Of a stretch of 64,000 bases of DNA, positions 13,674-64,000 are shown piece after piece. The notes beneath the pieces are model-generated. The model was not told the origin of the DNA. It saw only the letters and a program-made list of their open reading frames with translations, and made no database searches. A program made the translations under genes and the position numbers. Position 1 is the first letter of the stretch. Every line of letters begins with the position of its first letter. The DNA comes from Massalongia carnosa (lineage: Eukaryota), in the NCBI GenBank assembly GCA_965645245.1, contig OZ287086.1, positions 1,178,001-1,242,000 of the forward strand. Reading direction: 5' to 3'.

Positions 13674-14314
13674 TATTGTTTTTTATTAATTCATTAAGCG
13701 TATGCATCCTAAGGATATGACGCTGTGACTGCTATTTATATACATAAACAACAGTCAGGAAGTGGAAACCTGGCCCCCAGGATAAAACCACTCTCTTGTT
13801 CCATGTTGAACGCAACGAGACCGTCCTTCTTTTACGCGGTGCATACACCCAGATCTTCAAGCGCTAGGAATCCTATAGACTCGATGAACTAGACAGTGTA
13901 TTTTCACACGTTCGACGTACGTTCTCTCTCTTTAAACGTTTTGATTCAATGGAGGAAAGACTGGCCGTGATCGAGGGCAGATCATGGTGTCGTATAAATG
14001 AAGGTGTGTAAGTGTGGCAATTCTAAATGAATGGGCTTTTTCGATGTGGTGAAAGGCTTCCGCCTGAGGGGTGTGGCCATTCCGAATGAATGGGCTTTTT
14101 TGATGAGGTGAAAGGCTTCCGCCTGAGTGGTGTGGCCATTCCGAATGAATAGGCTTTGTATGTGTGCCTTCGAGGTGACGAATGATCAGTAGAGACGTTG
14201 ATCGTTCAAATGGCCACCGAGGTGGACTTCCGCGTTGGCGATGATCAGATATTGGCCACCTCCGAGGAGGTGTTGATAGCCTGCACCACGTAGGGGTTTC
14301 TGACCCAGCAGACC
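13674..14314 (-). mobile_element. SINE-like non-coding retroposon, copy 1 (ribozyme-headed)
   Basis: Reverse complement of 59760-60337 with the same 5' start and an A-rich tail; removal rejoins helicase ..HPID|LVASWIVHFF.. Confidence 0.82.
14243..14314 (-). ncRNA. Predicted HDV-like self-cleaving ribozyme
   Basis: GGUCUGC UG GGUCAGAA ACC CCUACGU GGU GCAGGCU AU CAA CACCUCC UC GGAGGUG G C CAA UAUCUGAUC fits the P1-P2-P3-L3-P3'-P1'-P1.1-P4-J4/2-P2' order. Confidence 0.72.
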
Positions 14315-23100: not shown

Positions 23101-23962
23101 GATCGTATGGGCGATGAGGTGCTAGCTCATCTGATTCAGCTTTGGAGAATACCTTCAGAAAGTCATGATATTCTTCAGGAACTTTGGTCTTCGGGTCGGT
23201 AGGAGTCGAACTTTCCTTGTTTAGTTGATAGTCAATGTCCCTTAGAGATATTGCGAATAGTTGAACGTCTTTCTTCTTGGTCAGTGATTTGTAGGCCGCA
23301 GCCCCTATGAGGGCGCAGTCTATCGGCTTATCTTTGGCAGATGACTTTTGTGATAGTCTTTCTGATATTCCTTTTCCGATTTTCTTAAAAGGTACCGACA
23401 ATGGGGCGGATCGTTCCGTACAGGTTTCTTCCGGTCGGACCAGGATTTGTCGGACCGTTCGGGTCTGTTCTGGTTTGTTCGAAGCCGACGTTGTCTGCCT
23501 CATCATTTTCATTGGTGTTGGCAGTCCAGGGGCGCCAGGATGGGTGCAATGCCCAGGCCAGAACATGATCTTGTCGTCCTTCATGCCCAGGAGGAGTCCG
23601 TGCTTCCTCATCCAAGGTTTTCCTAGAATCATTCCGTGCTGTCCTAGTTTGGTGATCAGCAATGGTAATAAGTTCTCACGATGATCCTGCATCGTCATGG
23701 TGGGATAAATAGCATGGGTAATATTAGGGGCCCGTCGTCCATCAAATCCTCGCACCGGTTTGGGTTTCGTCAGTTTCTGGGGTTCGATTTGACGTTGTTC
23801 ACAAATAGAGCGCACCATTGATTCGTCGATAAAAGCATGTCCCGTAGCACCGGTGTCGAAAAGAGCATCAAGCTTTATCTCATTCCTATTACCTAACGTA
23901 CATGCATGAACAAAAGGTTCATCGGTGAACAAATCACCAGGTAAATAGGAAGAGGAAATCAA
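20174..23962 (-). pseudogene. pol: pol (protease, RT, RNase H, integrase, chromodomain) with stops and frameshifts
   Basis: LFDTGA, AYLDDILIYS, ETDSSD, ISDRGPQF, EEWEVDDILD. Confidence 0.93.
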
Positions 23963-34700: not shown

Positions 34701-36093
34701 CGTCCCCAATTCGGATCGGCTCCGTCTCCGTCTCATTCAACAGGCACACGACAGCGTAGCAGGTGGCCATCCCGGTCGTTCCAAATGCTACGAACTAATG
34801 AATCGATCATACTGGTGGCCCAGTATGCATCAAACCGTCAAACGATTCATTCGTAACTGTCACACCTGTAGACGATCCAAACCATCCCGCCAACGATACC
34901 AAGGATGGCTACGCCCTCTGTCCCCACCCGAACGTCGATGGCGTGACGTTTCCATGGACTACGTAGGTCCGCTGCCTCCGAGCACCTTCATGGGTATAAC
35001 CTATCGTTATATCCTCGTCTTCATCGATCGCCTTTCCAAGATGCGACATTTCGTCCCCACCACCTCCATGGAGGTAGAAGAGGCTGCTAACTCCTTCTAC
35101 CAAAATGTATGGAAATTACACGGTCTCCCAGACGCCTTGATTTCGGATCGAGGCACCCAATTCACCTCCGATTTCTGGGACATCATGTGTAAACGGCTTA
35201 GAATTGATGCTAGGCTATCAACCAGTTTTCATCCCGAGACAGATGGCCAAACCGAGAGGGCTAATGCAACCATGGAGCACTATCTTCGGGCATACGTCAA
35301 TTACATGCAAGATGACTGGGCCCAGTACTTACCCGGTGCCGAATTCTCCAGCAATAACACCGACTCCTCTAGCATCCTCGCCTCTCCCTTCCTGGCTAAT
35401 TATGGACAACACCCCAGGGTAGGATTCGAACCCGAAGAGCCCCTTCCGCAAGACCTGACCGCCCAGGGAATCGCTAACCTGATCGCCGCCAATCGATTCG
35501 TAGACAAGATGCGAGACGTAGACACTCACCTACGAGAAGAGATGTTGATCGCGCAGGCCTCATACGAATCTTCCGCCAATGAGAACCGCCGTCCCTGTCC
35601 TCGTTATCTTGTAGGAGACATGGTATGGCTGAACACCCGAAATATCCAGACAGCCCGTCCGGCAGCCAAACTGGACGATCGAAATGTCGGTCCTTACCGA
35701 GTCTGTAAGGTGTTCGCCAACCCTCTTGTTGTTCAACTGGAACTCCCCGACACGGTTAAAATTCATCCGGTCTTTCATGTAAATCTGCTACAACACGACG
35801 CAGACGACCCCCTCCCAGGACAAATTCCCGAGCTTCGCGACCCAATAATAGCCGAAGATGGACAGCGAGAATGGTATGTCAACAGCATTCTGAACTCGAA
35901 ACTGGACAGACGTTATCAACCTCCGCTTCTCAAGTATTTCGTCAACTGGGAAGGACATACCCCCACCTGGGAGCCATTTCACCTACTAACCAACTGTCAA
36001 CAAGCTCTGGACGAATTCCACGAAGCCTATCCTGGTGCATCCGGCCCACATCTCACCCCCTGTTCCATTCCTCGATGTCGCTGTCATGAATAA
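31708..36093 (+). CDS. pol: Pol (protease, RT, RNase H, integrase, chromodomain), expressed as a Gag-Pol fusion
   Basis: LIDCGA, AYLDDILIYS, ETDASD, HHCC zinc motif, SDRG, ETDGQTE, EWYVNSILNS; no stops. Confidence 0.96.
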   Translation, partial: RLDSAHRRAQSPILISSCLLANSFSPPLQSNTRFSAASALELFETEEAFRDSHLVVSCILRLGRSRIQALNLIDCGASGYAFIDKKFAQTHQIPLHPLKYARRLEGFDGQPALTGNITHVAEVIMDLNGHVERLFLFVTGLKTYPIVLGHPWLRRHQALADFESNSLSLSSSFCLAHCSPHPVKVKAYTGEKFLSPAESQEVWESENYSSNSQILSEKPVLSDKTTPRDSKTTSLENQDISRIEKAIEQGDSPKIRYRSPSSYRTSTQRHAAQQNRNPPVLDVCEIGALNFNYLGRKKSHEMFALSLKEIDHFLGLTQPEPKPEPKPESRLRQETDWAHSKPTYQPNPRSSPSEKKYHLALFRMNQALTQLCSVTEPEPQPLTLQSSVTAEELNAYRERKNVDPAPLLPKQYHDFLDVFSKKESDVLPEHRPYDHAIKLKEGSPIPNQALYGMSRTEIEELRRYLDENLSKGFIRASKSPAASPVMFVKKPGGGLRFCVDYRGLNAITIKNRYPLPLITETLNRLSRAKIFTKLDIISAFNRLRIKEGDEELTAFRTRFGLFESLVLPFGLCNGPASFQHFINDTLREYLDDFCTAYLDDILIYSEIESEHEIHVKRILIKLREAGLQVDITKCKFHVTEVAYLGLIVTTEGIKMDPAKIETVTHWPIPINMKDVQSFLGFANFYRRFVYGFSKIAGPLTNLTKKEVSFQWTDKCQQAFETLKKAFTSELILMHFDPDRPIIVETDASDYVSGGILSQYDNENVLRPIAYFSKKHNPAECNYEIYDKELMAIVRCFEEWRPELEGSAHPISVISDHKNLEYFASTKQLSRRQARWSEFLSRFDFKIVYRPGKAGGKPDALTRRSGDLPKEGDETDERHKHQHQTILKTHNLDDEVAKSFLSTIILAPAFIEQDPESVEHDHEFIEPEPQLDQPADQTNPGQDPTDVPTQLLWEQALEQDQFSLKVLDMLRNNVRYHNGIQLAECEDKEGILYFRNRRYVPNSDRLRLRLIQQAHDSVAGGHPGRSKCYELMNRSYWWPSMHQTVKRFIRNCHTCRRSKPSRQRYQGWLRPLSPPERRWRDVSMDYVGPLPPSTFMGITYRYILVFIDRLSKMRHFVPTTSMEVEEAANSFYQNVWKLHGLPDALISDRGTQFTSDFWDIMCKRLRIDARLSTSFHPETDGQTERANATMEHYLRAYVNYMQDDWAQYLPGAEFSSNNTDSSSILASPFLANYGQHPRVGFEPEEPLPQDLTAQGIANLIAANRFVDKMRDVDTHLREEMLIAQASYESSANENRRPCPRYLVGDMVWLNTRNIQTARPAAKLDDRNVGPYRVCKVFANPLVVQLELPDTVKIHPVFHVNLLQHDADDPLPGQIPELRDPIIAEDGQREWYVNSILNSKLDRRYQPPLLKYFVNWEGHTPTWEPFHLLTNCQQALDEFHEAYPGASGPHLTPCSIPRCRCHE

Positions 36094-37216: not shown

Positions 37217-38190
37217 TCTTCTTTCTCAACATCATCTCTCCTAACATTGCAACGAATTCAACCTAAAACGTTTGATTATGTTGAAAGAGGATTACTTGAA
37301 TGGCTACCCAAAATTCTCGATAAAACACAATAGAGTGATTCAGTCCGGGAATAGGAGTAAGAGGAATTCGTGAGTAATACGATGGAAGTTGTTGCCAACT
37401 TGACGATTACGAACATCGACTTATCACTTCATCATGAGCGAAGAAGCAATGAATTACTACAAAGAGCAACTTCTCGGAAGCGATTAAGACCTAATTACTT
37501 GACAGACGGAGAATTAGGACTTACGAAGGAGGATGCGCAACGAGCAATTACTGAAAGACAGCGAAAAGATGAGCAGATGGAAAAGAAACGAGAACACAAC
37601 AACTTCATGAGAATATGGCAAATGAAAAGAGATAGTGTACACGCGGAAGGTGTTATCGCTCGAAAGAATGAAAAGATCAGAATAAAACATGTTAAAGACC
37701 CCTCAAAACAGAGAGTTAGCATATCCGATGAATTGTTGAATCCCACTGATGATCCTGAGGCCATTTGGAAAGCGAGCGATATTACTTGGCAGACGGAAGA
37801 GACCAAAAAAAGACGAAGAAAGAAATAATAGATACTCATATATTCAATGATGAAGAGGAAGAGACAGAGACTATCTTTATTATGGATACTGTAGGTGATC
37901 AAAACCTATGATTTGTAGTAAAGGTTATTGATGATGATGATGATAAATTTTTACACCGATATGTCACCGGCCGAAGGCCGGCCCATGCGGTCGTGGTTCT
38001 ATATGACTATTGTACATAGGAAAACCTTTTAAGGAATAAAAACCTAGTAACCAGAATTATCGCCTGCGGGATCCCCATGACCCCTCAGTGTACCTAATAA
38101 CGTGTGTCTGTGAGATCCTTGAAAGAAAAAGGAAAAGAACGAAAGAAATGGGGAAGAAGTCAAACATTTCAAATGCTGTGTCGACGGGAA

Positions 38191-41100
38191 CTATCCGTAC
38201 AGCATGGTCGCTGCAATTGAAAACTGTTTTAGTATATCTGCCCGCATTAACCATGCTGTCAGCTTTTTCAATTTTGCGGAATTTTCAATTATCGTGCGAT
38301 AATTGTTAGTTTTCACTTGCTTAAATAATTCATTTCTTCCGTCTATCAGCTGACAGTGCATGATGACGTGTTTGGCCGTCTGCCTTGGCCATCCACATAT
38401 GCACGCCGGTGAGTTTACATTGGTTACCCTTCGGTTGAAAAGAAAGTTGGCTAGCCCGATTTTCTCCGTGCGAATTTGCGTTGCTAGTGAACTCTCCGCT
38501 TTTGCCATATTGCTGTGAATTTTTTGTCTCTTTTTGTCAAGCGAAGCTTGTTGAGCCTCGGTGGGGAGTGGAATGCTATTTTGATAAGTCGCCCATGTTG
38601 ACTTCCATATTTTCATATGATGCTCCATGAGCCGCGTATGATGTGCCCGTTGGGCCGTTCGCGCTTCTCTCAGCTCCTTGAGATATTCTGGACTGGCCTC
38701 GTACCACGGGGGCGCGGAAGGCGGTAATCTGACGGCGGCCTCTCCATTTAACATTGCCTTGGCCCATGTGTGTTTCAGTTCTCCGGGTGTTGGCGGTGGA
38801 GTTTTTCTTCGACCCGCTCTTTCCCGTAGCTTATTAGCTATTATCTTGCATGCGGAGTTAGCGAGTGCTTTTTGCCCCGTGATTCGTAGTCGATATCTGG
38901 CTTTAGCCTGCAGTTGATCTAAATACACATCTATTGGGGCTATGTGTGTTTCTGCCTCCAGCACCGGTATCGGGGTAGCCTTGAACGCTCCGGCGACTGT
39001 GCGTAGGCATCTGTTCTGAATGACCGCCAATTTGGACGTTATGGATTTATTTCTATTTACCTCTTTCGGGGTGTGCCAGACGATTGAACCATATGTCATG
39101 GCCGGCCGCACCACCGCCATGTATACTTGCCTTGCCCTAGCGAACGAAGCTCCCCAGGTAGACGTGGAGATTTTTGTTAAGGCCATGCTCTGCTTGACCA
39201 TCTTCTCCTGCGTTTTCCGTATGTGAGCACCCCACTTAAGTTTGGTATCTATTTGAAGACCGAGTATTCTTATATCCGCTTTTGGTTTGATTAAGCTGTT
39301 TTCTATATTAATAGTAGCCGTCATTTCAAATTTCTTTGGATTTCTAGATAAATGAATAAGCTCGTACTTAGTCGGAGCAAATAAGGATCCGTGCCGTAGA
39401 GCCCATCTTTCACATTCTCTGTGAATTCTTTCTAGCGTTCTGCAATTTTCTTGCGTGCTTTTCCCATATGCTAGTACATTGATGTCATCGACGAATCCGA
39501 GTCCGCTCGTTTTCGTGCCGGGCCTGTTACATATGTCTAGTAAATCCGCATTGTAGAACAAATACAGAATGGGAGAGATGGGTGAACCTTGCGGAATTCC
39601 GTTTCTCGCATCAAACTCGTCGGTGGTTCGTCGGTTGATCGTAAGAGTAGTCCTTCTGTTTTTCAAAAAGCATTCTATCCAGTTGGTGACCCACTGTGGA
39701 ATTTTTCTTCTTCGAGGATTGTGGATCAGTCTTTGATGCGAAACCGTGTCGTACGCGCCGGCCACGTCCATGCTGAGCAGCGTGGCAACTTTATCATTAC
39801 CTTGACCCCACACTGTGTGAATCTGTTCGGTTAACAGCTCCAGTGCTGACTCGGTGGACCTTTCCCGTCTGGCTCCCATCTGGGTACCCGGTAGTAACTC
39901 GTGCTTTTCGGCATGTGAGTGATCTTGCTTGCCATGATGGCTTCCATCACCTTGCCTAGCGTATTCAGCAGTGCTATCGGGCGATAGGCCTTCGGTGTTT
40001 CGTAATTGTCTTTGCCCGCCTTTTTCAGCGTTATCGTGTGCGCTGTTCTGAATGCTCGCGGGTGATATCCCAGATTTACGCACGCCTGAAATAAACAACT
40101 CGGTCAGCGTCTCAGAGCACGCTTTGAGAACTCTGTTGGGTATACCATCCGGTCCAGGAGCCGTGTCGGGTTTGAGGCGTAGAATGTTCGTGAGCACCTC
40201 TTTCTTCGTTATGACTGTTGGGCACTCCGAGGCTGCCGGATAGACCGACCCGGGTATGTCCTGTAGATCCGCCGGAGGCGGAGCAGGAAAGAAGATGCCT
40301 TTCAACATTTCAGCCTTCTCTTCGAAGGTGTTCGCACTGTGATTGTTGAAGATCAGTGTTGGCATTTTTGGTGTTTCGCGCGCCTTGTGACTCTTGTCCT
40401 TTGCCCATTTCGCCAGCCGCCATATGCCCTGAGATGATTCAGACGCTTTACTGATCTCGTTTCTGAATGACAATGTTTTGGCTTTCATGATTATCTTTTG
40501 CTTTTTGTCATTCGATTTCATGTACGTTTTCCAGTCATTGAGATTTCGAGAGGCTGTCCAAATTTTTCGAATTCTGCGTGTTTCTCTCATGGCGTTGTTG
40601 CAGTCCTCGTTCCACAATGGTTTTGCATAAGCACTAGGCCTTGCCCATGGAACGGCCGCAGATATTATTTCATGTAAGAACTTTTGTATTTTATCCGTCT
40701 GTCGATCAATCTCCTCCACTGTGCGAGGAAGTGTTATCGGGGGAGCGTTGCATTCTGCTGTTCTCAACTTTTCCATGTTCAGCAGCTTCCAGGCTCTGCG
40801 TTTTATCTGTGTTAGCGTCTCACTTTCCAAAGAGATGCGGGAGGATATCGGAATGTGATCGGATGACTGATTGAGTTCTAGTCTTAACATGCAGTGAATT
40901 AGCCTCTCTGTTAGGAATTCTGACATGAAAACCAAATCGATGGTGCTGAATGAGTTCCGGGCTTCCCATGTGACGGTTCCATTGGGCAGGGTTAGCGACA
41001 GATTGGCTTCATCCACTATATCTAGCAGCTGATCCGCGGCTGCGTGTTGCGTGGGTCTGGTGGCTCCATTCCAGAAAGGATCGTGTAGATTGAAATCCCC

Positions 41101-41556
41101 GAGTAAGATGTGATGAGCGTCGGCGGAGAGCTGGCGTTGAGCATCTGGGAGGGTGGAGGGGCTGTCTCTTGAAGAATATGAGGTGGGTGATGGATTATAG
41201 ACGTTGTGAATGTGTATTTCCTTGTGGCTTCCGTCATTCTCGCGGGGGTGCAATATCAATGTGCATATGTCAGCGGTTGGAAATTTTACTTTCCGGCTTT
41301 CCGGATCTATTTTATCGTTGATGTAGAAGCACACTCTCGTGTCACCTCCTGGCCGATAGAGTAGATGAAAGCCGCTTTGATGCGGGCTGAGCGTGGTCGC
41401 AGCGTGGGGGTTGCGCCACGGCTCCTGGATTGCTATGATGTCGTAGTCCTGTATATTTGAATCCGCTAGCAATGGTATCATAGTACTTACGCGATCATTT
41501 CTGACATTGTACTGTAGGATGCTAATTGATTTTTTTTGTCCTTCATAAAGCTTCAT
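38191..41556 (-). CDS. LINE ORF2: AP endonuclease, reverse transcriptase, C-terminal CCHC (contains an internally frame-shifted block)
   Basis: LQYNV, IQEP, LGDFN, SDH, PQGSPISPILY, FVDD, CICG..QTAKHVIMHC. Confidence 0.9.
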   Translation of the reverse strand: MKLYEGQKKSISILQYNVRNDRVSTMIPLLADSNIQDYDIIAIQEPWRNPHAATTLSPHQSGFHLLYRPGGDTRVCFYINDKIDPESRKVKFPTADICTLILHPRENDGSHKEIHIHNVYNPSPTSYSSRDSPSTLPDAQRQLSADAHHILLGDFNLHDPFWNGATRPTQHAAADQLLDIVDEANLSLTLPNGTVTWEARNSFSTIDLVFMSEFLTERLIHCMLRLELNQSSDHIPISSRISLESETLTQIKRRAWKLLNMEKLRTAECNAPPITLPRTVEEIDRQTDKIQKFLHEIISAAVPWARPSAYAKPLWNEDCNNAMRETRRIRKIWTASRNLNDWKTYMKSNDKKQKIIMKAKTLSFRNEISKASESSQGIWRLAKWAKDKSHKARETPKMPTLIFNNHSANTFEEKAEMLKGIFFPAPPPADLQDIPGSVYPAASECPTVITKKEVLTNILRLKPDTAPGPDGIPNRVLKACSETLTELFISGVRKSGISPASIQNSAHDNAEKGGQRQLRNTEGLSPDSTAEYARQGDGSHHGKQDHSHAEKHELLPGTQMGARRERSTESALELLTEQIHTVWGQGNDKVATLLSMDVAGAYDTVSHQRLIHNPRRRKIPQWVTNWIECFLKNRRTTLTINRRTTDEFDARNGIPQGSPISPILYLFYNADLLDICNRPGTKTSGLGFVDDINVLAYGKSTQENCRTLERIHRECERWALRHGSLFAPTKYELIHLSRNPKKFEMTATINIENSLIKPKADIRILGLQIDTKLKWGAHIRKTQEKMVKQSMALTKISTSTWGASFARARQVYMAVVRPAMTYGSIVWHTPKEVNRNKSITSKLAVIQNRCLRTVAGAFKATPIPVLEAETHIAPIDVYLDQLQAKARYRLRITGQKALANSACKIIANKLRERAGRRKTPPPTPGELKHTWAKAMLNGEAAVRLPPSAPPWYEASPEYLKELREARTAQRAHHTRLMEHHMKIWKSTWATYQNSIPLPTEAQQASLDKKRQKIHSNMAKAESSLATQIRTEKIGLANFLFNRRVTNVNSPACICGWPRQTAKHVIMHCQLIDGRNELFKQVKTNNYRTIIENSAKLKKLTAWLMRADILKQFSIAATMLYG

Positions 41557-43188
41557 CCATGTCTCTCGAGGGAGTCGTTTTCGATTGGGTAGGGATTTGT
41601 ACTTCCAAATGGGCCCCTTGCGGAGCGGTCGCGGTGCGATGGTGGGTGGGGGGCGGAGCGGTTAGGGTGACTGCTGGTTTGGATGGGAGAGGGATGGGAG
41701 GAGATAGGGTAGTAGGGGGGCAGGGGGCACTATTGACAGCGTTGGGGGGTCTACCCAGAGTGGGCTTCGCCATCGCCCTTATTCTGTTTGCCGGGTTCAT
41801 GATCTCGATGTCCTTCCATGTGATTCCGGTCTCGGCACCTGGTAGGCTCCTCGGCTGATTCGCCTGTGTGGCGGATTGGGTTATTGTGCGCGATATTTTC
41901 CTTTTTTTCCCATTAATAAGACTCCATGTGGTAGGTAGGTCTTCCGTCCGTAAGTCTAGGTCTACCGTTGTAGTCCCTGCCTCTGCTGGGGGGTTGCTGG
42001 CGCCACCGCCAGCCCTTCAGCTTCGTATAGATGCGCTTTTCATTTCCTTGCGTCGTTTACTTTCTTCTTCTCCTTCGCTCGAACCACACACACAGGGGAC
42101 CACGCTGGGTGACCAGACTTCTCGCACGTGGCACACATGGGGTGGGCTCCGGTCGTCTCGGGATTGCACTCGTGCGTAGGATGTCCGCCGGCACAACGCC
42201 CACAGGCCGTGGGGTGTTTACACCATTTGCTGATATGCCCATACTTATAGCAGTTGAAGCATTGCACTAGTATGTTATTTTTGTGAAATATTTCACAGTG
42301 ATTGATCTCGTAGTCTACGAGCAGACCTTCGTTGATGAGCTGGTTGGCCATCGGTGCAGTTTCAACTTCCATGTGCAGCGTAGAGTGCACTTTTCCTTCT
42401 CTGATGGCCTTGTTGGACCAAGCGACCTTTACGATCTTCAGTCCCGCATGCAGTCGTGCATTAACGGCATGTAGGTACTCAATGGCTCTCGTCTGATTGG
42501 TGACGTCGATGTGTTGCATCCTGACGCCACGTACCTGTATGGCAAAGGTACGCCTTTGCACCGCTGCCGATGCGGCTACTTCACGCACCCAGCCCGTATT
42601 GTCATACAGAGACATCTTAATCGCTGCCGTTTCGGTGTGTATCCTAATGTCTCCACTGTTGAGACGCGATACTCCTATTATTCCTGCATTTCTCTTCTGT
42701 AGCGCCTCCACCAAGTCCTTTGTGGACGTTTGCTTTATTCTTTCTCGATCCTCGCTCTTCGTCACTCGTATGGTGAGTTCCCTTGCCCTTTTGATCATAC
42801 TTGGTGTTTGTTCCTTCGCTTTCTGCGTCTTTACGTTGTTTAGAGTGCTTCGAACCGGCACAGATCCGCCCTCATTGAGGTGTCCCGCCGCGGCGACGGC
42901 GGCATAGTTTCTTGCTGTTGGGATCTCCTTTCTGCTTTCAATTCTCTGTAGAGTGCTTTTGATATCATTTAGAGCAGATACCACGTGTGTGGTGTCGTGC
43001 GATTTTTTGTCTAATTGATTTTGTGCCTCCAGCACAATTCTCGATTCCTGCAAAATTTGCAACGCTACCGGGTCTCCTACTTTACCCACACGGTCAAGAT
43101 ACTCTTTGATTTTAATTACCAGAGACTCCTTCGCCTTTCTATGCTCACTTTCGCACTGTGCACTTCTTGGTACGAGATTTTCGTTCAT
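41543..43188 (-). pseudogene. LINE ORF1 (gag-like, three zinc knuckles), frameshifted near 42040
   Basis: QCFNCYKYGHISKWC, CGRCAGGH, CATCEKSGHPAWSPVC; 3' part lies in another frame overlapping the ORF2 start. Confidence 0.85.
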
Positions 43189-43349
43189 GGTCGCCCCTTC
43201 CGTTCGCAAGTACGTATCAACAATTAAGTGTAGTAAAGGTTATTCTATTCGTCTACAAAAAGACTTCGTTACATTTGAAATAGAAGAGGAAGTAGGCGAC
43301 GAAGTCGACGACACCGGCGAGGTTGATTTTCAGGAGCAGTTGGGTTATT

Positions 43350-43405
43350 TGATTTGAATTTGATTATTCTTACGCCGTTGTGTCACCGGCCAAAGGCCGA
43401 CTCAT
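43350..43405 (-). mobile_element. 56-bp 5'-truncated LINE insertion (3' end only)
   Basis: Similar to the LINE 3' end at 37950-37990; (TCAAA)n tail; 14-bp TSD GCAGTTGGGTTATT. Confidence 0.8.
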
Positions 43406-44420
43406 GCAGTTGGGTTATTATTAGTATAACTACTATTATAACTTTTTTCATGCTTGATCTTTGTAGAAAAAAAGTCCCATCGTTATTTGATTGGTTTTTT
43501 GCGTGTAAAAGTTGAAAAGACGAACTTTGCTATCCGCCGAACTTTGCTTTCCCCGACTAGAGGCGAACGCCTCGAGTCGGCCGAGGTAAGCGAGAGACTA
43601 GCCGACGATTAGTTCAACAAAGGCAAATATCGCTGGATTGACAATGAAAAGCATTATCCGCTGAATACAGCTCATATTAATCCTTGGACCCAAGCCATCG
43701 AGGAGGGAAATCCACTCATGAAAGGCCTCTACCGACTACATTAGAGGTTCTTTTTTCATCAAAACGAAAGGCCGATGCTCTCGAAAAGAAAGAGCAAAAA
43801 GCAATCGTTAAAGAATCCGTCCCTTCGGCAATATATTCGATGACTGCAGGTCCAGCATATCCACCTCCTTGTTATCCATTTTTATATCCATATCAACAAC
43901 CCTCAGCCTTATTGTATCCTTAACTATATTTTCCCCTTCCTTCCCCTTCCGTATATCAGAATATGCCTTCAGCACAGCCTATTCAGCAAGAAAAATGGGA
44001 GAAAGTGGAGAAGAAGGTAAAAGCAGAAGCATAAAAAGATGAAGAACTCATCTGAATTAACAACCGCTCTACCGTTAAGCTTCACCTCCGTTCCTATTCC
44101 AAGCAGTCCGGTGGAGCAAGGTGATTTGTATGATTATATTTTATGGCATATAAAAATCACACCTAGATTGAAGTTTCAATTTAGACACGCCTATAAAATA
44201 CTGGAGGATAAGTGTTATGATTTACAAACCATTCAGCAGTGGAAATGTACTGCTTATGAGGAAAAATGGGAGAAAACGGGAATCGAACCTGGCATCGGCA
44301 TACGTTTGGCCCACCATGTTAGCAAATTTGCTAGACAATTGAAGCAGCAATCATCCGAGCATGATTCTGAATCTATAATTGTTCCTCCTCCATCAGAATC
44401 ATGTTCCTCTAGTCAATCTC

Positions 44421-50611: not shown

Positions 50612-51748
50612 ATGAATACTATATTTCCTCCAATTGCCATTATTGGGGCAGGCCTCAGTGGGCTTACACTTGGGCTGGGTCTCAAGCATAGAGGAATAGC
50701 AGCTGTTGTATACGACCGCGCGACTTCAACACCTCGGAACAACTACGGCATATTACTGCACTCATCGACCTATAGACCACTCCTGAGCATTCTTCATATG
50801 GACAAAAAAACGTTTCGGGAAAAAGTAGCCGTCAATGCCCCACAGGGTGGCAGTGGAAGCCTCTCGGGGTCGAACAGTTTTGCACCCACCGACTCCTTTC
50901 GCTGTCACCGTGGCCGGCTCGAGGCTCTGCTCGGCAAGGATCTGTCAATCAGCTGGGATAAAAGATTGAATGACCTTCAGCTTACTTCGCAGCCCGAAAA
51001 GCTTACTGCTTCTTTTGATGACGGGTCTAGCCTGAGGACCAGTTGCCTAATTGGCTGCGACGGGCCTCACTCGATGACTCGTCAAAGCCTGAGTCCTACA
51101 ATGAAGTTGCAGGTTCTCCCATACGTTGTCTATAATGGCAAGCGAAGCATCTCTTACACCGAATATTTGGAAACCATGCATGACTACATGCAAAACGGTT
51201 TACTCACACAGGCGCTCGAAGGCGAGATTTTACTCCAGATATATTTGACCGATATCTCCGGATCACAAGTCATTATAGGCTACACTTACTCTCGCCCAGC
51301 CATTAAGAATAACGATCCTCTTCACAAACCGGACCGCCTCGTCCCTGGTGCAACTGACATTCCTGAAGAACTTTTTGAGGAGCTAGTATTGTTACAGAAT
51401 CTCGAGCCTCCGTTCAAGGTGATCTTTGACGCTGAAGAAGTACGGGGCGATCGACTCTTGCACTGGCTGATGCGAACCTTGATGCCAGACCCGAGCGAGG
51501 CGCAACGGCTTGCAAAACATGACGTGGTTCTCATAGGGGATGCGGTGCATACTACCCCCATACTGGGTGGTGAAGGTGCGAACATGGCCATAAGAGACGG
51601 CATCGATCTAGCACAACATATTGCCACGCATGGTACTAATGCCTTTGAAAACTTCTCGAAGTCTAAGTTCGAGGAGTGGAAAGAGTCTGTACATAACAGC
51701 AAGAAAATGATAGAGAATATGCATATGTCTAAGGGGTCCAATCTTTAG
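50612..51748 (+). CDS. FAD-dependent monooxygenase/oxidoreductase (group A flavin monooxygenase-like)
   Basis: 378-aa intact single-exon ORF; IAIIGAGLSG, LIGCDG, VLIGDAVH..P..GEGANMAIRDG. Confidence 0.9.
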   Translation: MNTIFPPIAIIGAGLSGLTLGLGLKHRGIAAVVYDRATSTPRNNYGILLHSSTYRPLLSILHMDKKTFREKVAVNAPQGGSGSLSGSNSFAPTDSFRCHRGRLEALLGKDLSISWDKRLNDLQLTSQPEKLTASFDDGSSLRTSCLIGCDGPHSMTRQSLSPTMKLQVLPYVVYNGKRSISYTEYLETMHDYMQNGLLTQALEGEILLQIYLTDISGSQVIIGYTYSRPAIKNNDPLHKPDRLVPGATDIPEELFEELVLLQNLEPPFKVIFDAEEVRGDRLLHWLMRTLMPDPSEAQRLAKHDVVLIGDAVHTTPILGGEGANMAIRDGIDLAQHIATHGTNAFENFSKSKFEEWKESVHNSKKMIENMHMSKGSNL

Positions 51749-58102: not shown

Positions 58103-59759
58103 TAAATGCATCATCGACTCGATCCCTATTCCCGTTTCCCTCATTCACCCCAGCTGGTTTTATGATGGCCCACCTTATGCGGTCTCTTGGCAAATGACCT
58201 TCGATTTCGCTCGCGGCTCGGAGCCCGAGGTCGAAAAGATCGTCGATGAGGTCGAAGGGACGGGAGAGACTGAGGCGGATAAGGATGAGGTCGAGCTCGA
58301 AGAAGGCGTGTAAGGTGAGGATAGATTTCGCCGCGGGGGCCTTGATTTGCTATATTCTGTGGCATATCAATCTATTGACCTGCATCAATCAATAGAAGAT
58401 TCTCATCGAAGGGAGGAGTACGCTAGCGAGCATGCTCACATCGTTGAAAAGTTCAATAAGAAATGGTAAAAGAAGGAGCTGGTAAGACCTCTCATCCCCA
58501 CCACATTCCTCGACGAAATTCGGCACAAAGAAAACCTCATGTATAAGAAAGGAGGGAGTCGTCGACGTGCCTACACTGGTCGCGAGGCAGCTGAGGCTAG
58601 AGAAACTGAACAGCGACGTACTAGGCGAAAGGACTCTATTGAACAAGGGAGGAGGCTTAGATATAATAGATTGCGTGCTGGGGGCGACGATGAGGTTGAA
58701 GGTGAAACAGTAGGTAAAATTCACGATGTTGCAAAGTTATTGCGCTCGGGTCGGCTAATATTGGGTACAATAGGTTTAGGAGAAAACTTAGTTATGGAGA
58801 GAATCGAAATAGCGTCTATCGTCTCCGAAGACGATGACGAGGTGCAGTATATAAGCACTCAGCCCATTCTCGGTCGTTCTATGGATCCTATACTTCCTTC
58901 GGATGATGATAATGATGTTATTCTTACATCAGAAACCTCGTCGGATTCGCTCGAAGATATTGACGATGTGCTTGCCAAGCATAGTCAAAAAGCCCTACCT
59001 AAGGCAGCGCCGCCTCCATCTCTTTATAGTCTTAGCCAAAACGTGCGCGCCAGTCAAATTCTCCCTACTTCCTCTGCAACAACGCGAAGGTCTCGGGGTG
59101 TGGCGAAGAAATCAAAGGCTCAGTTGGAGTTGGAATCTCAGCAAAGAGTCGAGAAATCAGTCAAACAGGCTAGAGCTCAAGCGAGAAAGGAAACGGCGAT
59201 GAGAAAGGTGGCTAAAACCATGAAGCCTAGAAAAGATGATGTATCGCAATTAGCTGACGAGTTTTTGGAGTTGAAGTCATCACAATCGGTAGATTTGTAG
59301 GTGTTTAATACACTTAGTCAGTAACAGCAACAGTATTAATACGTAGTGTAATTGCTAGCTTGTACGCACCCTGGATGAGTAGTAAAATGGCTATTTACTA
59401 GTAAAGATCTACACAAAGCAATTTGCATCTACACTCGGCAAGGAAAGACTTGTGGCGGTGGCAAATTTGTATGAAGTCAGAAAGCGCATCGGAAGAAGGA
59501 ACCGATGAGATGGAAATGGAAGCTTCTGGAATCGCTGGTGGACGGGCATAAATAGGAGCAGTTTTACCCTACGTAGTGGTAGGAAGTCAATCGTTTCTCC
59601 CAGTTTGTTTTGCATGTGCAAGAACTCGTTTGTCGAACTAGTCATATCAATTGCCCAGTGCTACCATTCCGCCTGTTGCAGTCACAGTTCCAAAATCAGG
59701 TAGGGAGGAGAGAAGACTGCATGAAGGTGTGTTCTATTGAGATCTGTCTACATGGCTAT

Positions 59760-59831
59760 GGCCTGCTGGGTCAAAAACCTCTACGTGGTGCAGGCTATCA
59801 ACACCTCCTCGGAGGTGGCCAATATCTGATC
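59760..59831 (+). ncRNA. Predicted HDV-like self-cleaving ribozyme
   Basis: P1 GGCCUGC/GCAGGCU with G1-U wobble; P3 ACC/GGU; L3 UCUACGU; P4 CACCUCC/GGAGGUG; J4/2 G-C(59819)-CAA; P2 GGUCA../..UGAUC. Confidence 0.75.
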
Positions 59832-60337
59832 ATCGCCAACGCGGAAGTCCACCTCGGTGGCCATTTGAACAATCAACGTCTCTACTGATCATTCGTCACC
59901 TCGAAGGCACACATACAAAGCCCATTCATTCGGAATGGCCACACCCCTCAGGCGGAAGCCTTTCACCACATCGAAAAAGCCCATTCATTAAGAATGGCCA
60001 CACTTACACACCTTCATTTATACGACACCACGATCTGCCCTCGATCACGGCCAGTCTTTCCTCCATTGAATCAAAACGTTTAAAGAGAGAGAACGTTCGT
60101 CGAACGTGTGAAAATACACTGTCTAGTTCATCGAGTCTATAGGATTCCTAGCGCTTGAAGATCTGGGTGTACGCACCGCGTGGTAGAAGGACGGTCTCGT
60201 TGCGTTCAACATGGAACAAGGGAGTGGTTTTACCCTGGGGGCCAGGTTTCCACTTCCTGAATGTTTTTTATGTACATAAATAGCAGTCACAGCGTCATAT
60301 CCTTAGGATGCATACGCTTAATGAATTAATAATAAAA
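59760..60337 (+). mobile_element. SINE-like non-coding retroposon, copy 2 (ribozyme-headed)
   Basis: 12-bp TSD CTACATGGCTAT (59748-59, 60338-49); AATAATAAAA tail; no TG..CA ends or TIRs; internal ~60-bp repeats. Confidence 0.87.
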
Positions 60338-60535
60338 CTACATGGCTATTATATACTGCCTAGCGCGCCAAGGCTCGTAGGGCTGCGCTACACCTATAAA
60401 GGGGTTTGGAGGATTATTTAACACTAGTTCATGTGACCTCGTATTGCTTCTATTTCTAAGGTTGGCGGAAACACAGCGATCTGCACCTCGCTAGCGCCGT
60501 CACTTTCGCCGGCGCCTCTACCGAGCGCCCCCTTT

Positions 60536-60753: not shown

Positions 60754-63700
60754 TTATAGATCTGGAATCAGTCCAGTATAATCCCTTATATTCCTCATCT
60801 TGATGCTTTGTCCTCCGAAACACGCCACCTGAACGCCCGATTGTGAATGCATTAGACGATTTTTCAAACTTTCCATCTTTCGTATCGAGTCCAATCTTTC
60901 CGATATGTTCACCAATCCTATCAATCTTATGAAATATCCTTGAGAACTTTTCCTATACTTGTTGTCCGCGAAGGACGCGTCGCTAGCACATAGGAACCCT
61001 TGTATCCCTTCCTCTTGTTTCCCTTCATATTGAATCGCCAGGGTTTTGGTGGCGTATAGGTATTCTAGGACTCGCATCGCTGCTTGGTGATGTTCATCGG
61101 AAGGATTTATGGAGAATTGGGATAGTTTGGACAACGTGAATGCGATATCTGGTCTGGTGGTTATGGCTGCGAATAGGGCTGTTCCTATCCTTTGGTGATA
61201 TAAGTGAATGGACTGATGGGAAGCTTTGTTTTCTGAGACTGTATATTGAGTTGATATCATAGGAGTATCTGCTAGTTTCTTATCTAGTTGAATATCGAAT
61301 TTATTAGCCATCTTATCAATATAGGCCTCTTGGGATAGCCATAGAAGTCGTTTAGACCTATCTCTTATGACTCTGATTCCTAAGAACCATTCGATTCCCC
61401 CCAGTGATTTCATGGTGTATATTGAACATAAATGCTCGATGGCTTTCAAGGCCTGACCCTCGATCGATTTGTGGTAACAAAATACCGTGTCATCCACATA
61501 ATAGAATACTAGGATTCCGCGTCTCATCATTATACATGATTCTTGAGGTATGGCCCTAAATTCCATGGATTGAAATGTTTTTTGACAGATGCTTCTGCCA
61601 TAGATATGGTGACCGTCTCAGGCCGTAGAGTGCTTTTCTCAGTCTTAACACATATTTTTGTTTTAGACCACATCTCTGATTTAACCTCTTCCACCTTTGA
61701 GCTTTACTGTCCGGGACTATACCGATTCAAGGGCGATCAGTCCTTGTCGACTAGTTCTCCACAATGGTTTCTTACCTAGACTGGCCGCGTTTTCTCTTGG
61801 GTGTGAAGGCCTTCCTTTTACAGAAGTCATCATTTCACCAGGGGTCGCCGCTGTTTGGTCTTCTGATAGAGTCGTCCTCTTTTCAGTGCCCGCCCGCTCG
61901 ACGGCGAATGCGAATGCCTACCTGTGAATGGATAATATGGTGGAATACGTATGTATACCACCTCGTCCAGCGGACAGTTGACAAATGCATTTACTGCATC
62001 GAGTTGTCTAGTTTCTAGATCATACTTCGCAACTAACGCCATCATGGACCTGAATGCTGAGCTGGCCAAAGTGGTCGCTCGTGTTGGTAGTTCCCCAACC
62101 TCTTGTTGATTCCCACATACTACTAATCTAGCTTTGCATTTTACCAAATAGCCATCACTGTCTGTCTTGTAGGTGAAAACCCACATGCAGTCCAGCACTT
62201 GATGTCTTATGGTATGCTTGCTTTCGACTAGTTCAAACGTCTCCATCTTCTCATGCTCACCGAGATGTTCTCTGATGGCATCGATGAAGTGAGACTCGAA
62301 CATGTGACCCTCCAGGTCACGTATGGTTTTGGGAGGTGGGGGTAGATTCAACTAATGGAACTTACTGAACAACCGACCAGCGGCAAATGCCCCGAGTTCT
62401 GATGTTTGGATGCGTGGTGCTTCTTTATTGATATAGATATTATCGTCGAAGTCACATTGAGAGCAGCTTGCCTCATGTATATCTTCAATTTCTAACCGAG
62501 CATGAAGTGCCATGGCTAATTCGTCATCCTCATCTGGTGGTGGTGTTGGTAATCCACGTTCTTGTTCCTCTGCTTGGCGTAGATCCTCGATCAATTTGTC
62601 TGGTCTATCAAGCCTATCGACGTCAGGTATATCCTCTGCTTCATCATTATGATACTCCAGTATCTCCACATCTTCCTCTAAGATGCCTTCATTTATTGCT
62701 TCAGCCACTGGCAACTCGATCCTATTTATGATGGTCTCTCTCTCTACTTCAGACGTTCCTTCTTCGGGTAACTGTCCTTCGTAGAATCTGGACTCATCGA
62801 ATATCACGTCTCGTGTAGAGATGACACCATGTCTTTCTGGTATCCACACTCTAAAGATATTCGTCTATCGGGATCCTACCAGGTATCCTATATATGCACG
62901 GGGTTGGAGTTTCTGTCGTCTGTTCTTATGAAGTTGAGCGTCCTCAGTCATCGCATATGCTCTGCAGCCATAGGCCTTTAAATGGGCCAATTGAGGTTTG
63001 GTTTTGTAGAATGTTTCGAACGGTGATTTCCTGGACTGAGCCTCTCTAGGAGTCCTATTATGTAAATACGTTGACGCATCTATTATCTCCTTCCAGAGAT
63101 TTGATGGTAACTTAGCTCCTATTGACATCGCCCTCGCCTTCGTCACTATCACACCCCCTGAACGTTCCGCTACACCATTTTGTGCTGCAGTTCTAGGAGC
63201 GGAAGGTTCGAATTCTATCCCTACCGATGACAACCACTTGTTGGTACGCTTTCTATTCAACTCCAAATCTGACCGTATCCTTTCTATCAGTAGGTTCCGT
63301 TGCTTGCACCAAGCCATTAGGTCTTTGAGAATCTTGAGGGTTTCTGACTCCTCTCCGTGTGTTGACATGAAATAAGGTATGACTAATCCAGTATATTTGT
63401 CTGTGATAAACATTGTTCGTATAAAACCATCCATGGCCTTATCGAAATCCGTCCAATCTATGTGCAGTTCCTGGAATAGCTTCGTTACTTTTCTATTTCC
63501 TGGCCGACGTGATATTTGTCTATGCATCTTTGCCAGACTACACGCCTCACACTGAGTGGTCGATGGCCCTAATAGTGTAATACCTAATGAGTTCTCTCCT
63601 AGTTTGTGAAGGCTTATTGGTCCAGGATGTTCCATACGACAATGCCAGATGAAGGCATCTCCCTTTGAGGAGGATCTAGGTTTTCCTGAACGACGACGAG

Positions 63701-64000
63701 GTATTGGAGTTATTAGCAATGCGGCCATACTAGATGAATCTGACCTTTGGAATGCAGGAAGTTCGTCAACTTGATGAATCAGACAAATTGTCCTTCGTCC
63801 TTTATTAGTCTTCTTGTATAGAACATTCCTTTCCGTGTCCCAGTATTTATCTCTCTTTCTTAGTTGTTGAAACGACACTAGATTTACCACGAAGTCCACA
63901 CAATATGCCACGTTCGATAGTCTCATCACCCCCTCAGATTTATCTTCTCGGAGTATAGGTATTGTGACACTACCGTAACCAAGGATTGGAATCCTTGATG
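60754..64000 (-). pseudogene. pol: Copia pol (GAG-pre-integrase, integrase, RT, truncated RNase H), degenerate; runs off the window
   Basis: WHCRMEHPG, QNGVAERSG, KCKARLVVCG, QLDAVNAF, YVDD, SDASFAD; integrase-before-RT order. Confidence 0.93.

What the first reader, a model, noticed from the sequence alone, without database searches (positions are those of the whole stretch)
59760..60337. Ribozyme-headed SINE-like retroposon: element starts exactly at an HDV-like ribozyme cleavage site
Seen: a ~580-bp non-coding element with a perfect 12-bp TSD and an A-rich tail. Its first 72 nt are GGCCUGC-UG-GGUCA(A/G)AA-ACC-UCUACGU-GGU-GCAGGCU-AU-CAA-CACCUCC-UC-GGAGGUG-G-C-CAA-UAUCUGAUC. Every element of the HDV double pseudoknot is present in order: 7-bp P1 with the G1-U wobble, P2, 3-bp P3, L3 with U..G in the HDV U20/G25 positions, a single-pair P1.1 (U-A, analogous to the single pair in CPEB3), a CAA linker, P4, the catalytic C and J4/2. 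Nucleotide 1 of the fold is nucleotide 1 after the TSD. Known: HDV-like ribozymes define the 5' ends of R2, L1Tc and other non-LTR elements and of their short derivatives. Inference: a fungal non-autonomous retroposon that cuts itself out of read-through transcripts instead of relying on a Pol III promoter, then borrows a LINE RT. I cannot tell from here whether the family has been described.
Basis: partly seen in the sequence, partly recalled or inferred. Interest (0 to 1): 0.9.

Follow-up and report, generated by a model that had tools for sequence, protein, structure and literature searches.

The report
Ribozyme-headed retroposon in an ascomycete fungus
A 578-base non-coding jumping element in a fungal genome begins exactly at the predicted cut site of a hepatitis-delta-type self-cutting RNA, a design known from animal and trypanosome retrotransposons but, as far as I could find, not described for fungi.

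Summary
Window 59760-60337 (+) is a 578-bp non-coding repeat with a perfect 12-bp target-site duplication and a TAA/A-rich tail. A second copy lies at 14314-13679 (-).

Its first 72 nt fold as an HDV-like nested double pseudoknot. Both Rfam HDV models match it end to end at that spot, but below gathering score (26.8 and 26.0 bits).

In contigs of four public runs under four organism labels, homology stops exactly at G59760. Two further complete copies have their own 13-bp duplications. None of the 40 best-supported variant sites lies in the first 83 nt.

The same catalytic core recurs in independent metagenomic ribozymes whose P1, P2 and P4 helices differ but still pair.

Best reading (0.72): a non-autonomous non-LTR retroposon whose RNA 5' end is made by self-cleavage from read-through transcripts, copied by a LINE enzyme that I could not identify. 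Cleavage, transcription and the partner are untested, because no RNA run and no whole genome were available.

This design is known from NARTc/L1Tc, R2 SIDEs and metazoan SINEs. HDV-type ribozymes are also known in ascomycetes, with no function assigned. I rate it a new member of a known kind, of moderate interest.

The parts
59748..59759 (.). Left copy of the 12-bp target-site duplication CTACATGGCTAT
   Evidence: D8, 100% identity to 60338-60349. Contigs of paralogous copies of the surrounding repeat in run X1 join 59751>60339 and 59753>60345 without the element, which amounts to empty sites (table 5).
59760..59831 (+). HDV-like self-cleaving ribozyme, with predicted cleavage 5' of G59760. 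P1 59760-66/59790-96; P2 59769-75/59825-31; P3 59777-79/59787-89; L3 59780-86; J1/4 59797-59801; P4 59802-17; J4/2 59818-24; candidate catalytic C at 59819.
   Evidence: Rfam RF02682 at 26.8 bits and RF00094 at 26.0 bits, both full-length and both below gathering. The MFE fold reproduces P1, P3 and P4. Own descriptor hit, against 0.675 expected per window. None of the 40 listed variant places in four runs lies in 59760-59842 (table 3; 15 further rows not shown).
59832..59907 (+). 5' body, including a second short hairpin followed by GGCCA (about 59848-59863) that resembles P4 plus J4/2
   Evidence: Sequence. TGGCCA occurs 4 times in the 578-bp element, against about 0.12 expected from the window's shuffle mean of 13.24 per 64 kb (the per-element figure is my arithmetic).
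59908..60025 (+). Two tandem 59-nt units, each with a CCAUUC/GAAUGG hairpin; copy B has three units
   Evidence: D1; 59-column gap; folds of the units.
60026..60325 (+). 3' body, non-coding, with predicted hairpins near the 3' end
   Evidence: fold of 60180-60337; no ORF of 40 aa or more.
60326..60337 (+). TAA/A-rich tail TTAATAATAAAA, whose length varies between copies
   Evidence: In one search table 7, the X6 copy continues with AATAATAATAAA before its duplication and the X7 copy has TAATAAAAA. Copy B has TAATAAAAAA.
60338..60349 (.). Right copy of the 12-bp target-site duplication
   Evidence: D8.
13679..14314 (-). Second, older copy (copy B); ribozyme at 14314-14243. It differs from copy A by 19 substitutions and one extra 59-nt unit, and has no clear target-site duplication.
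   Evidence: Rfam scores 18.9 and 18.3 bits. Its three changes in the ribozyme are C3>U (keeps a G.U pair in P1), A15>G (turns the P2 A.C mismatch into G-C) and U21>C (first base of L3).

Best explanation
Window 59760-60337 is one copy of a high-copy, non-coding, non-autonomous non-LTR retroposon of an ascomycete fungus.

The element has no Pol III promoter. The proposed cycle is as follows.
1. The element is transcribed as part of longer (read-through) transcripts.
2. The 72-nt HDV-like ribozyme at its head folds co-transcriptionally and cuts immediately 5' of G59760. This gives an RNA whose first base is the first base of the element.
3. A LINE-encoded endonuclease/reverse transcriptase, supplied in trans, copies that RNA into a new site by target-primed reverse transcription. 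This leaves a TAA/A-rich tail and a 12-13-bp target-site duplication.

Shown here:
- the anatomy of the element;
- the HDV-type fold at base 1;
- the shared 5' boundary in independent insertions;
- the duplications and tails;
- the lack of listed variation in the ribozyme.

Inferred:
- cleavage activity;
- the source of transcription;
- the use of a LINE enzyme.
For: 1. Fold. Both Rfam HDV models align end to end at the element's start. They also do so in copy B. The G1.U wobble, L3 U..G, the C in J4/2 followed by NAA, and P1/P2/P3/P4 are all present.

2. Boundary. Homology between copies A and B stops at G1. In contigs of 4 of 4 laid runs, unrelated sequence abuts 59760: loose ends 12, 5, 1 and 1, with agreement 0.41-0.52 where several are pooled (table 7).

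3. Retroposition. Copy A has a 12-bp duplication. The complete X6 copy (59760-60337, 7 differences) is flanked by TATTCACAATAGA on both sides. The X7 copy (59760-60335, 10 differences and 1 gap) is flanked by about AAATTACATCGGC. Each follows a tail of different length (tables 7 and 8). Empty-site joints were seen in paralogous host repeats (table 5).

4. Constraint. None of the 40 best-supported variant rows (36 distinct places inside the element) falls in 59760-59842, although depth there is as high as elsewhere. If variants were spread evenly, the chance of this is about 0.004 (my arithmetic).

5. Core is a real ribozyme core. A metagenome scan for the core motif gave 119 matches, of which 20 have a 7-bp P1. 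I estimate about 2.4 by chance. Of these 20, 16 have a P2 of 6 bp or more and 15 a P4 stem of 3 bp or more, although neither helix was required by the pattern. Among the 99 matches without P1 the figures are 6 and 10. Nine of the 20, from about 4 lineages, carry the same AU J1/4 as this element.

6. Precedent. L1TcRz cleaves in vitro with a single-pair P1.1, and NARTc, its non-coding derivative, cleaves at +1 (PMC3185411, passages read).

7. No Pol III A or B box and no ORF of 40 aa or more.
Against: - Rfam scores are far below the gathering thresholds (26.8 against 44; 26.0 against 50).
- P1.1 is a single U-A pair.
- P2 in copy A is 5 contiguous bp, or 7 with an A.C mismatch. A 5-bp P2 in that arrangement has about a 14% chance expectation (my arithmetic).
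- Within the family the ribozyme is invariant, so it shows no covariation. Copy A against copy B has 3 of 19 substitutions in the first 72 nt, where 2.4 are expected, so that pair shows no extra conservation.
- MFE z-scores are unremarkable.
- In copy A the base before the cut (U59759) could pair with A59797, extend P1 and compete with the lone P1.1 pair. The L1Tc paper describes this effect for some copies.
- A shared 5' end could equally come from an internal promoter that starts at +1, as in L1Tc Pr77.
- No autonomous partner was found. The only intact LINE in the window (37930-43228, -) has no ribozyme, a (TCA)n tail and no similarity to the element.
- Table 3 hides 15 weaker variant rows, and 161 loose-end rows are not shown.
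Confidence: 0.72

Rival explanations
1. The element is a retroposon, but its constant 5' end is set by an internal Pol II promoter that starts transcription at G1. On this view the HDV-like fold is an inactive relic, or has another role such as protecting the 5' end or binding protein.
For: Pr77 of L1Tc is both a promoter starting at +1 and a ribozyme (PMC3185411 and PMC3383444; passages, abstract). The weak points of the fold are the single-pair P1.1, the mismatch in P2 and the sub-threshold Rfam scores. Conservation of the first 83 nt would fit a promoter or a protein-binding site just as well.
Against: All catalytic-core positions are intact in the family majority sequence. The same core with AU J1/4 recurs in about 4 unrelated ribozyme lineages with well-paired helices. 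Nothing here tests promoter activity.
Confidence: 0.17
2. The unit propagates, at least partly, as head-to-tail tandem copies. Ribozymes in neighbouring units would then release unit-length RNA that could circularise, in the manner of a retrozyme or deltavirus.
For: One contig of run X1 joins 60330 back to 59760 ('goes back 571', side 66, table 5). L1Tc and NARTc also occur in tandem (PMC3185411).
Against: This rests on 1 contig, with 'between: not known'. It may be one copy inserted into the A-rich tail of another, or an assembly path through a repeat. Three dispersed copies have 12-13-bp duplications and A-rich tails, the signature of linear RNA copied by target-primed reverse transcription.
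Confidence: 0.06
3. The match to the HDV fold is a chance resemblance in an ordinary SINE-like repeat.
For: A loose descriptor finds 0.675 hits per shuffled window. One evident chance hit lies at 16903. Rfam scores are below gathering.
Against: Two independent HDV models align full-length. The hit starts exactly at base 1 of a repeat flanked by a target-site duplication. The 11-nt P3/L3 block CCUCUACGUGG equals the consensus of RF02682 (alignment). The head is invariant across four runs.
Confidence: 0.04

Closest known systems
NARTc / L1Tc of Trypanosoma cruzi, with RIME/ingi and SIDER of other trypanosomatids (PMC3185411, passages read; PMC4035085, abstract and outline read)
   Same: A short non-coding non-LTR retroposon whose first ~77 nt are an HDV-like ribozyme cutting at +1. 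P1.1 has a single base pair. The elements are dispersed and sometimes tandem, and the ribozyme frees the element RNA from longer transcripts.
   Different: In trypanosomes the non-autonomous element shares its ribozyme head with a known autonomous LINE (L1Tc), and that head is also a promoter. Here no partner is known and promoter activity is untested. The host is an ascomycete. There is no sequence relationship beyond the ribozyme class.
R2 SIDEs and R2/R1 hybrid SIDEs of Drosophila (PMC3414825, abstract read)
   Same: The architecture is a 5' HDV-like ribozyme joined to a short 3' end, with no coding capacity, mobilised in trans by target-primed reverse transcription. The hybrid SIDEs have 14-bp duplications.
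   Different: SIDEs insert site-specifically in rDNA and are visibly derived from R2 or R1. This element is dispersed at unrelated sites (different flanks) and no LINE-derived sequence can be recognised in it.
HDV-like ribozymes heading RTE, Baggins and other metazoan LINEs and SINEs (Ruminski et al. 2011, not held here; known to me only through the review PMC6765202, passages read)
   Same: Promoter-less elements that are transcribed as part of host or LTR transcripts and released by a 5' HDV-like ribozyme.
   Different: The review describes them in metazoans, and I could not read the primary paper.
Variant HDV ribozymes of ascomycetes (Li and Breaker 2017, PMC5640933; section 7 and one row of Table S1 read; Stockholm alignments not readable)
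   Same: These are HDV-class ribozymes in Ascomycota: 230 representatives in 26 species with 'widely variable gene associations', and two of them cleave in vitro. They have one extra unpaired nucleotide between P2 and P3, as here (A59776).
   Different: Those variants typically have C-G at the cleavage site and an E-loop in P4. This one has G.U and an ordinary P4. That paper assigns no function, and the word stem 'retrotranspos' does not occur in its main text. I could not compare sequences.
drz-Fpra type ribozyme (Rfam RF02682)
   Same: The P3/L3 block CCUCUACGUGG is identical, as are the CAAC and GGC.AA core positions (alignment).
   Different: It is bacterial and lies upstream of glmM (PMC6765202). 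Its J1/4 is AGG, giving a two-pair P1.1, against AU here. The score is below the family threshold.

Membership tests
HDV-like self-cleaving ribozyme (structural class) | Nested double pseudoknot: P1 (7 bp) directly continued by P3, with P2 closing over P4 | tested here: met
   P1 is 7 bp, P3 3 bp and P4 6 bp. P2 is 5 contiguous bp, or 7 with one A.C mismatch, and fully paired in copy B.
HDV-like self-cleaving ribozyme (structural class) | Catalytic C in J4/2 followed by N-A-A; G.U (or R-Y) pair at the cleavage site; U and G in L3 for the reverse wobble | tested here: met
   G59818-C59819-C-A-A, G59760.U59796, and U59780 with G59785 in L3 (aligned to model positions).
HDV-like self-cleaving ribozyme (structural class) | P1.1 of two base pairs between L3 and J1/4 | tested here: not met
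   Only U59782-A59797 can pair. L1TcRz cleaves with a single pair (PMC3185411), and 9 of 20 P1-forming metagenomic loci share AU. This weakens the claim but does not exclude it.
HDV-like self-cleaving ribozyme (structural class) | Score at or above Rfam gathering for an HDV family | tested here: not met
   26.8 against 44 (RF02682) and 26.0 against 50 (RF00094). Copy B scores 18.9 and 18.3.
HDV-like self-cleaving ribozyme (structural class) | Self-cleavage giving 5'-OH and 2',3'-cyclic phosphate ends | not testable with these tools
Non-autonomous non-LTR retroposon (SINE / SIDE in the broad sense) | Variable-sequence target-site duplications of about 7-20 bp and an A-rich or simple-repeat 3' tail | tested here: met
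   12 bp, and 13 bp and about 13 bp in the X6 and X7 copies, with tails of different length. Copy B has no clear duplication.
Non-autonomous non-LTR retroposon (SINE / SIDE in the broad sense) | Short, non-coding, many dispersed copies with unrelated flanks | tested here: met
   578-636 bp; longest ORF 38 aa. Contig pieces laid: 2174 in X1 and 145 in X5. These are pieces, not a copy number. Flanks are diverse at 59760 and 60337.
Canonical SINE | Internal Pol III promoter (A and B boxes) from a tRNA, 7SL or 5S head | tested here: not met
   No A or B box on either strand, even with loosened consensus (box consensus recalled from memory). No tRNA, 7SL or 5S match in the Rfam scans. It is therefore SINE-like, not a canonical SINE.
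NARTc / R2-SIDE type (derivative of an identified LINE) | Head and/or tail shared with an autonomous LINE in the same genome | tested here: inconclusive
   The only LINE in the window shares nothing with the element. No whole genome is held. The metagenome and viral scans for the family found nothing.
Retrozymes | Hammerhead ribozymes in flanking direct repeats, 4-bp duplications, circular RNA | tested here: not met
   No hammerhead match, a single HDV-type ribozyme, and 12-13-bp duplications.

The most novel reading that the evidence does not exclude
Ribozyme-headed retroposons may be the unrecognised setting of the 'orphan' HDV-class ribozymes of ascomycetes: 230 in 26 species with 'widely variable gene associations' (PMC5640933). 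This particular family has no Pol III promoter and no recognisable LINE-derived sequence. It occurs at 98-99% identity under four different organism labels, and a lichen metagenome run is among the listed holders. It may therefore be spreading between lichen-associated fungi, possibly by horizontal transfer or through unit-length or circular RNA from tandem copies.
Probability: 0.15. Interest if true: 0.7.

Novelty: new member of a known kind. Interest (0 to 1): 0.48.

Why it matters
Fungal SINE-like elements are usually explained by Pol III promoters. HDV-class ribozymes have been catalogued in ascomycetes without an assigned role. A fungal retroposon whose first base is the ribozyme's cut site would link the two. 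It would extend the strategy of cutting oneself out of a host transcript from animals and trypanosomes to fungi. It also suggests a simple annotation rule for fungal genomes: ribozyme at base 1, A-rich tail, 12-13-bp duplication. The family is compact and high-copy, so it is a convenient system for 5'-OH end mapping and for finding which LINE mobilises it. The principle itself is not new.

Tried and rejected
- Whole genome: none is held. No genome-wide census and no partner search were possible.
- RNA evidence: no RNA holder was listed, so expression and 5' ends were not examined.
- Family-specific scans: the metagenome pattern scan found 0 hits, and a viral-contig scan found 0 hits.
- LINE at 37930-43228 (-) as partner: rejected. 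It has no similarity to the element, no descriptor hit at its 5' end, and a (TCA)n tail rather than a TAA/A-rich tail.
- Descriptor hit at 16903-16979 (+): AT-rich, with no HDV model match. I take it as the expected chance hit.
- One search contained a mistake of mine: a core regex one base too short, which shifted P1 by one. Its table is void and was replaced.
- MFE z-scores are not significant and carry no weight.
- Copy A against copy B gives no signal of extra conservation in the ribozyme.
- Metagenomic family L036/L063/L073/L091/L101/L116: I asked whether it is a retroposon head. Its upstream ~130 nt are conserved too, and no tandem structure was seen, so it says nothing about retroposition.
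- Papers not held: Webb 2009, Ruminski 2011 and Webb and Luptak 2011. The Stockholm alignments of PMC5640933 could not be read, so no sequence comparison with the published fungal ribozymes was made.
- Earlier notes of this scan: nothing for this genome, this sequence or the word set. The 8 of 81 'HDV ribozyme' notes that were shown concern phages, an archaeal virus and a DNA transposon, and did not bear on this element.

Full report
OBSERVATION. A perfect 12-nt direct repeat, CTACATGGCTAT, lies at 59748-59759 and 60338-60349 (D8). It brackets a 578-bp segment that ends in TTAATAATAAAA. The segment has no ATG-to-stop ORF longer than 38 aa in either copy, and no Pol III A or B box on either strand (the box consensus is recalled from memory).

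A second copy lies on the minus strand at 14314-13679. It differs by 19 substitutions, 11 of them transitions, and by one extra 59-nt internal unit. Its homology to copy A stops at the same G, and I could not find a clear duplication around it.

THE FOLD. Read, the first 72 nt give these parts:
- P1 is 59760-66 with 59790-96: 7 bp, with G1.U37 at the cut site.
- P3 is 59777-79 with 59787-89.
- L3 is UCUACGU.
- J1/4 is AU followed by CAA.
- P4 is 59802-17.
- J4/2 is G-C-C-A-A, with the candidate catalytic C at 59819.
- P2 is 59769-75 with 59825-31.

P2 has 5 contiguous pairs. It has 7 if an A.C mismatch (59774 x 59826) is tolerated, and in copy B that position is G-C. One base, A59776, then remains unpaired between P2 and P3. 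P1.1 can form only one pair, U59782-A59797.

An Rfam scan of 4 kb lists the two HDV families at this spot, both aligned over the whole model. RF02682 scores 26.8 bits (E 0.044) and RF00094 scores 26.0 bits (E 0.84). Both are below gathering, which is 44 and 50. These E-values are already multiplied by 4227 families. Copy B scores 18.9 and 18.3 bits. In the whole-window scan only copy A is listed, with E 0.71.

A loose descriptor of my own hit three sites: 59760 (+), 14314 (-), and an AT-rich site at 16903 that no HDV model matches. Forty dinucleotide shuffles gave 0.675 hits per window. A hit alone is therefore common. The strength of the case lies in the hit starting at the first base after a target-site duplication. 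Free-energy z-scores are not significant.

THE FAMILY ELSEWHERE. No whole genome is held. A run search listed 22 runs. Eighteen of them hold part of the 1.3-kb stretch and none is on record as RNA. One holder is labelled a lichen metagenome.

I laid the contigs of four runs with four organism labels on 59660-60440:
- In all four, unrelated sequence abuts 59760. Loose ends 'before 59760' number 12, 5, 1 and 1, with agreement 0.41-0.52 where several are pooled.
- Loose ends 'behind 60337' appear in X1 (7) and X6 (1), and 'behind 60335' in X7 (1).
- X6 holds a complete copy with 7 differences, flanked on both sides by TATTCACAATAGA.
- X7 holds one with 10 differences and 1 gap, flanked by about AAATTACATCGGC.
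- Each of these two copies follows a tail of different length.
- Contigs of the repeat into which copy A is inserted join 59751 to 60339 and 59753 to 60345 without the element. These amount to empty sites.
- None of the 40 best-supported variant rows lies in 59760-59842, although depth there matches the rest. With 36 distinct places inside the element, this has a chance of about 0.004 if variants were spread evenly (my arithmetic).

Three caveats apply. Fifteen weaker variant rows and 161 loose-end rows are not shown. Contig pieces are not copy numbers. The organism labels are coded, so the four may be close relatives, or samples that share one fungus.

THE CORE IN OTHER RIBOZYMES. A family-specific metagenome scan found nothing. 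A second scan required only the P3/L3 block, CAAC and GGCCAA. It gave 117 loci with 119 matches. Twenty matches have a 7-bp P1 at the right place, where I estimate about 2.4 by chance.

Of these 20, 16 have a P2 of 6 bp or more and 15 have a P4 stem of 3 bp or more, although the pattern required neither helix. Among the 99 matches without P1 the figures are 6 and 10. Nine of the 20 carry the same AU J1/4 as this element: one AT-rich family of six loci, plus L031, L038 and L081. Their P1, P2 and P4 sequences are quite different.

So the core of this element, including its single-pair P1.1, is a recurrent natural HDV-type core. This is evidence for the class of ribozyme. It is not covariation within the family.

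CONTEXT AND PARTNER. The window is rich in transposons:
- Ty3-type elements at 21626-23962 (-) and 31825-36093 (+).
- MULE copies.
- Copia-type fragments at 60754-61566 and 62865-63929 (-).
- One apparently intact LINE at 37930-43228 (-).

The LINE has ORF1 (382 aa) and an endonuclease-RT ORF (1121 aa), a 16-bp duplication and a (TCA)n tail. It has no similarity to the element and no ribozyme-like head. It is therefore not an evident partner.

An FAD-binding ORF at 50612-51748 groups with ascomycete clusters.

MECHANISM. The most likely cycle has three steps. First, the element is transcribed from outside, as it has no Pol III promoter. Second, the ribozyme cleaves co-transcriptionally 5' of G59760. 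Third, a LINE enzyme acting in trans carries out target-primed reverse transcription.

Shown here are the anatomy, the boundary, the duplications and tails, and the invariance of the head. Cleavage, the transcript source and the enzyme are inferred.

The main rival is an internal promoter that starts at G1, with the fold inactive or doing something else, as in the dual Pr77/L1TcRz system. A single 'goes back' contig (60330 joined to 59760) leaves a small place for tandem copies and unit-length RNA.

COMPARISON WITH WHAT IS KNOWN.
- NARTc/L1Tc and other trypanosomatid elements have an HDV-like ribozyme in the first 77 nt, a single-pair P1.1, and in vitro cleavage at +1 (PMC3185411, passages; PMC4035085, abstract).
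- R2 SIDEs and R2/R1 hybrid SIDEs consist of a ribozyme joined to a 3' end (PMC3414825, abstract).
- A review states that LINEs and non-autonomous SINEs with hammerhead or HDV-like ribozymes are known in diverse metazoans, and that RTE and Baggins lack promoters of their own (PMC6765202, passages).
- HDV-class ribozymes are known in ascomycetes. There are 230 variant representatives in 26 species with 'widely variable gene associations', and two cleave in vitro. Eleven further examples conform to the general consensus (PMC5640933, section 7). That paper's main text never uses the word stem 'retrotranspos'.
- My searches for a fungal ribozyme-headed retroposon found none. Repbase, Dfam and the unread papers and alignments may hold one.

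VERDICT. It is a new member of a known kind, of moderate interest.

Noticed in passing
window 37930-43228 (-), duplications at 37914-37929 and 43229-43244: An apparently intact LINE: ORF1 of 382 aa (42040-43188) and an endonuclease-RT ORF of 1121 aa (38191-41556), a perfect 16-bp target-site duplication, a (TCA)n tail and a G+C-rich hairpin before the tail. It looks recently active. It has no ribozyme head.
   Followed up: partly
window 43350-43405 (-), duplications at 43336-43349 and 43406-43419: A 56-bp fragment of the same LINE's 3' end (hairpin plus tail), flanked by a perfect 14-bp duplication directly upstream of the full copy. This is an extreme 5' truncation.
   Followed up: partly
window about 59695-59759 and 60338-60406: The DNA into which copy A is inserted is itself a high-copy repeat in runs X1 and X5. 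Its depth is comparable to the element's, with loose ends at 59693/59695 and about 60406, and versions without the insertion exist. I did not work out what it is. It lies between a MULE end (about 59415) and a copia-type RT/RNase H fragment (60754-61566, -).
   Followed up: no
run X1, joint 60330 to 59760 (table 5): One contig joins the 3' end of the element to its 5' start, head to tail. It could be a tandem pair, an insertion into another copy's tail, or an assembly path.
   Followed up: no
window 59816, 59858, 59936, 59995; copy B 14074, 14133, 14211, 14253: The palindrome TGGCCA, each time just 3' of a short hairpin, occurs 4 times in the 578-bp element, where about 0.12 is expected. The window as a whole has 30 matches, against 13.24 in shuffles. 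It may be a repeated protein-binding module. The second occurrence looks like a partial duplicate of P4 plus J4/2.
   Followed up: no
loci L036, L063, L073, L091, L101, L116 (metagenome contigs, G+C 24-31%): A well-formed HDV-type ribozyme family. It has C-G at the cut site, one C between P2 and P3, an irregular P4 and the same AU J1/4. The first two features match the published fungal variant type (PMC5640933). It is always preceded by A10, and both ~130 nt upstream and ~200 nt downstream are conserved. Host and function are unknown.
   Followed up: partly
locus L030 (- strand), the 10 nt before its ribozyme: The 10 nt upstream of this unrelated, F. prausnitzii-type ribozyme are identical to the 10 nt upstream of copy A (ACATGGCTAT). 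The identity does not extend further, and the string occurs once in about 1 Mb of fetched loci. It is probably coincidence, since in the window these bases are duplicated target DNA.
   Followed up: partly
window 61187-61240 (+): A sub-threshold match to a C/D-box snoRNA model (SNORD75, 24 bits, gathering 50, E 0.0033 in the 4-kb scan) inside the copia-type fragment. It is probably chance.
   Followed up: no
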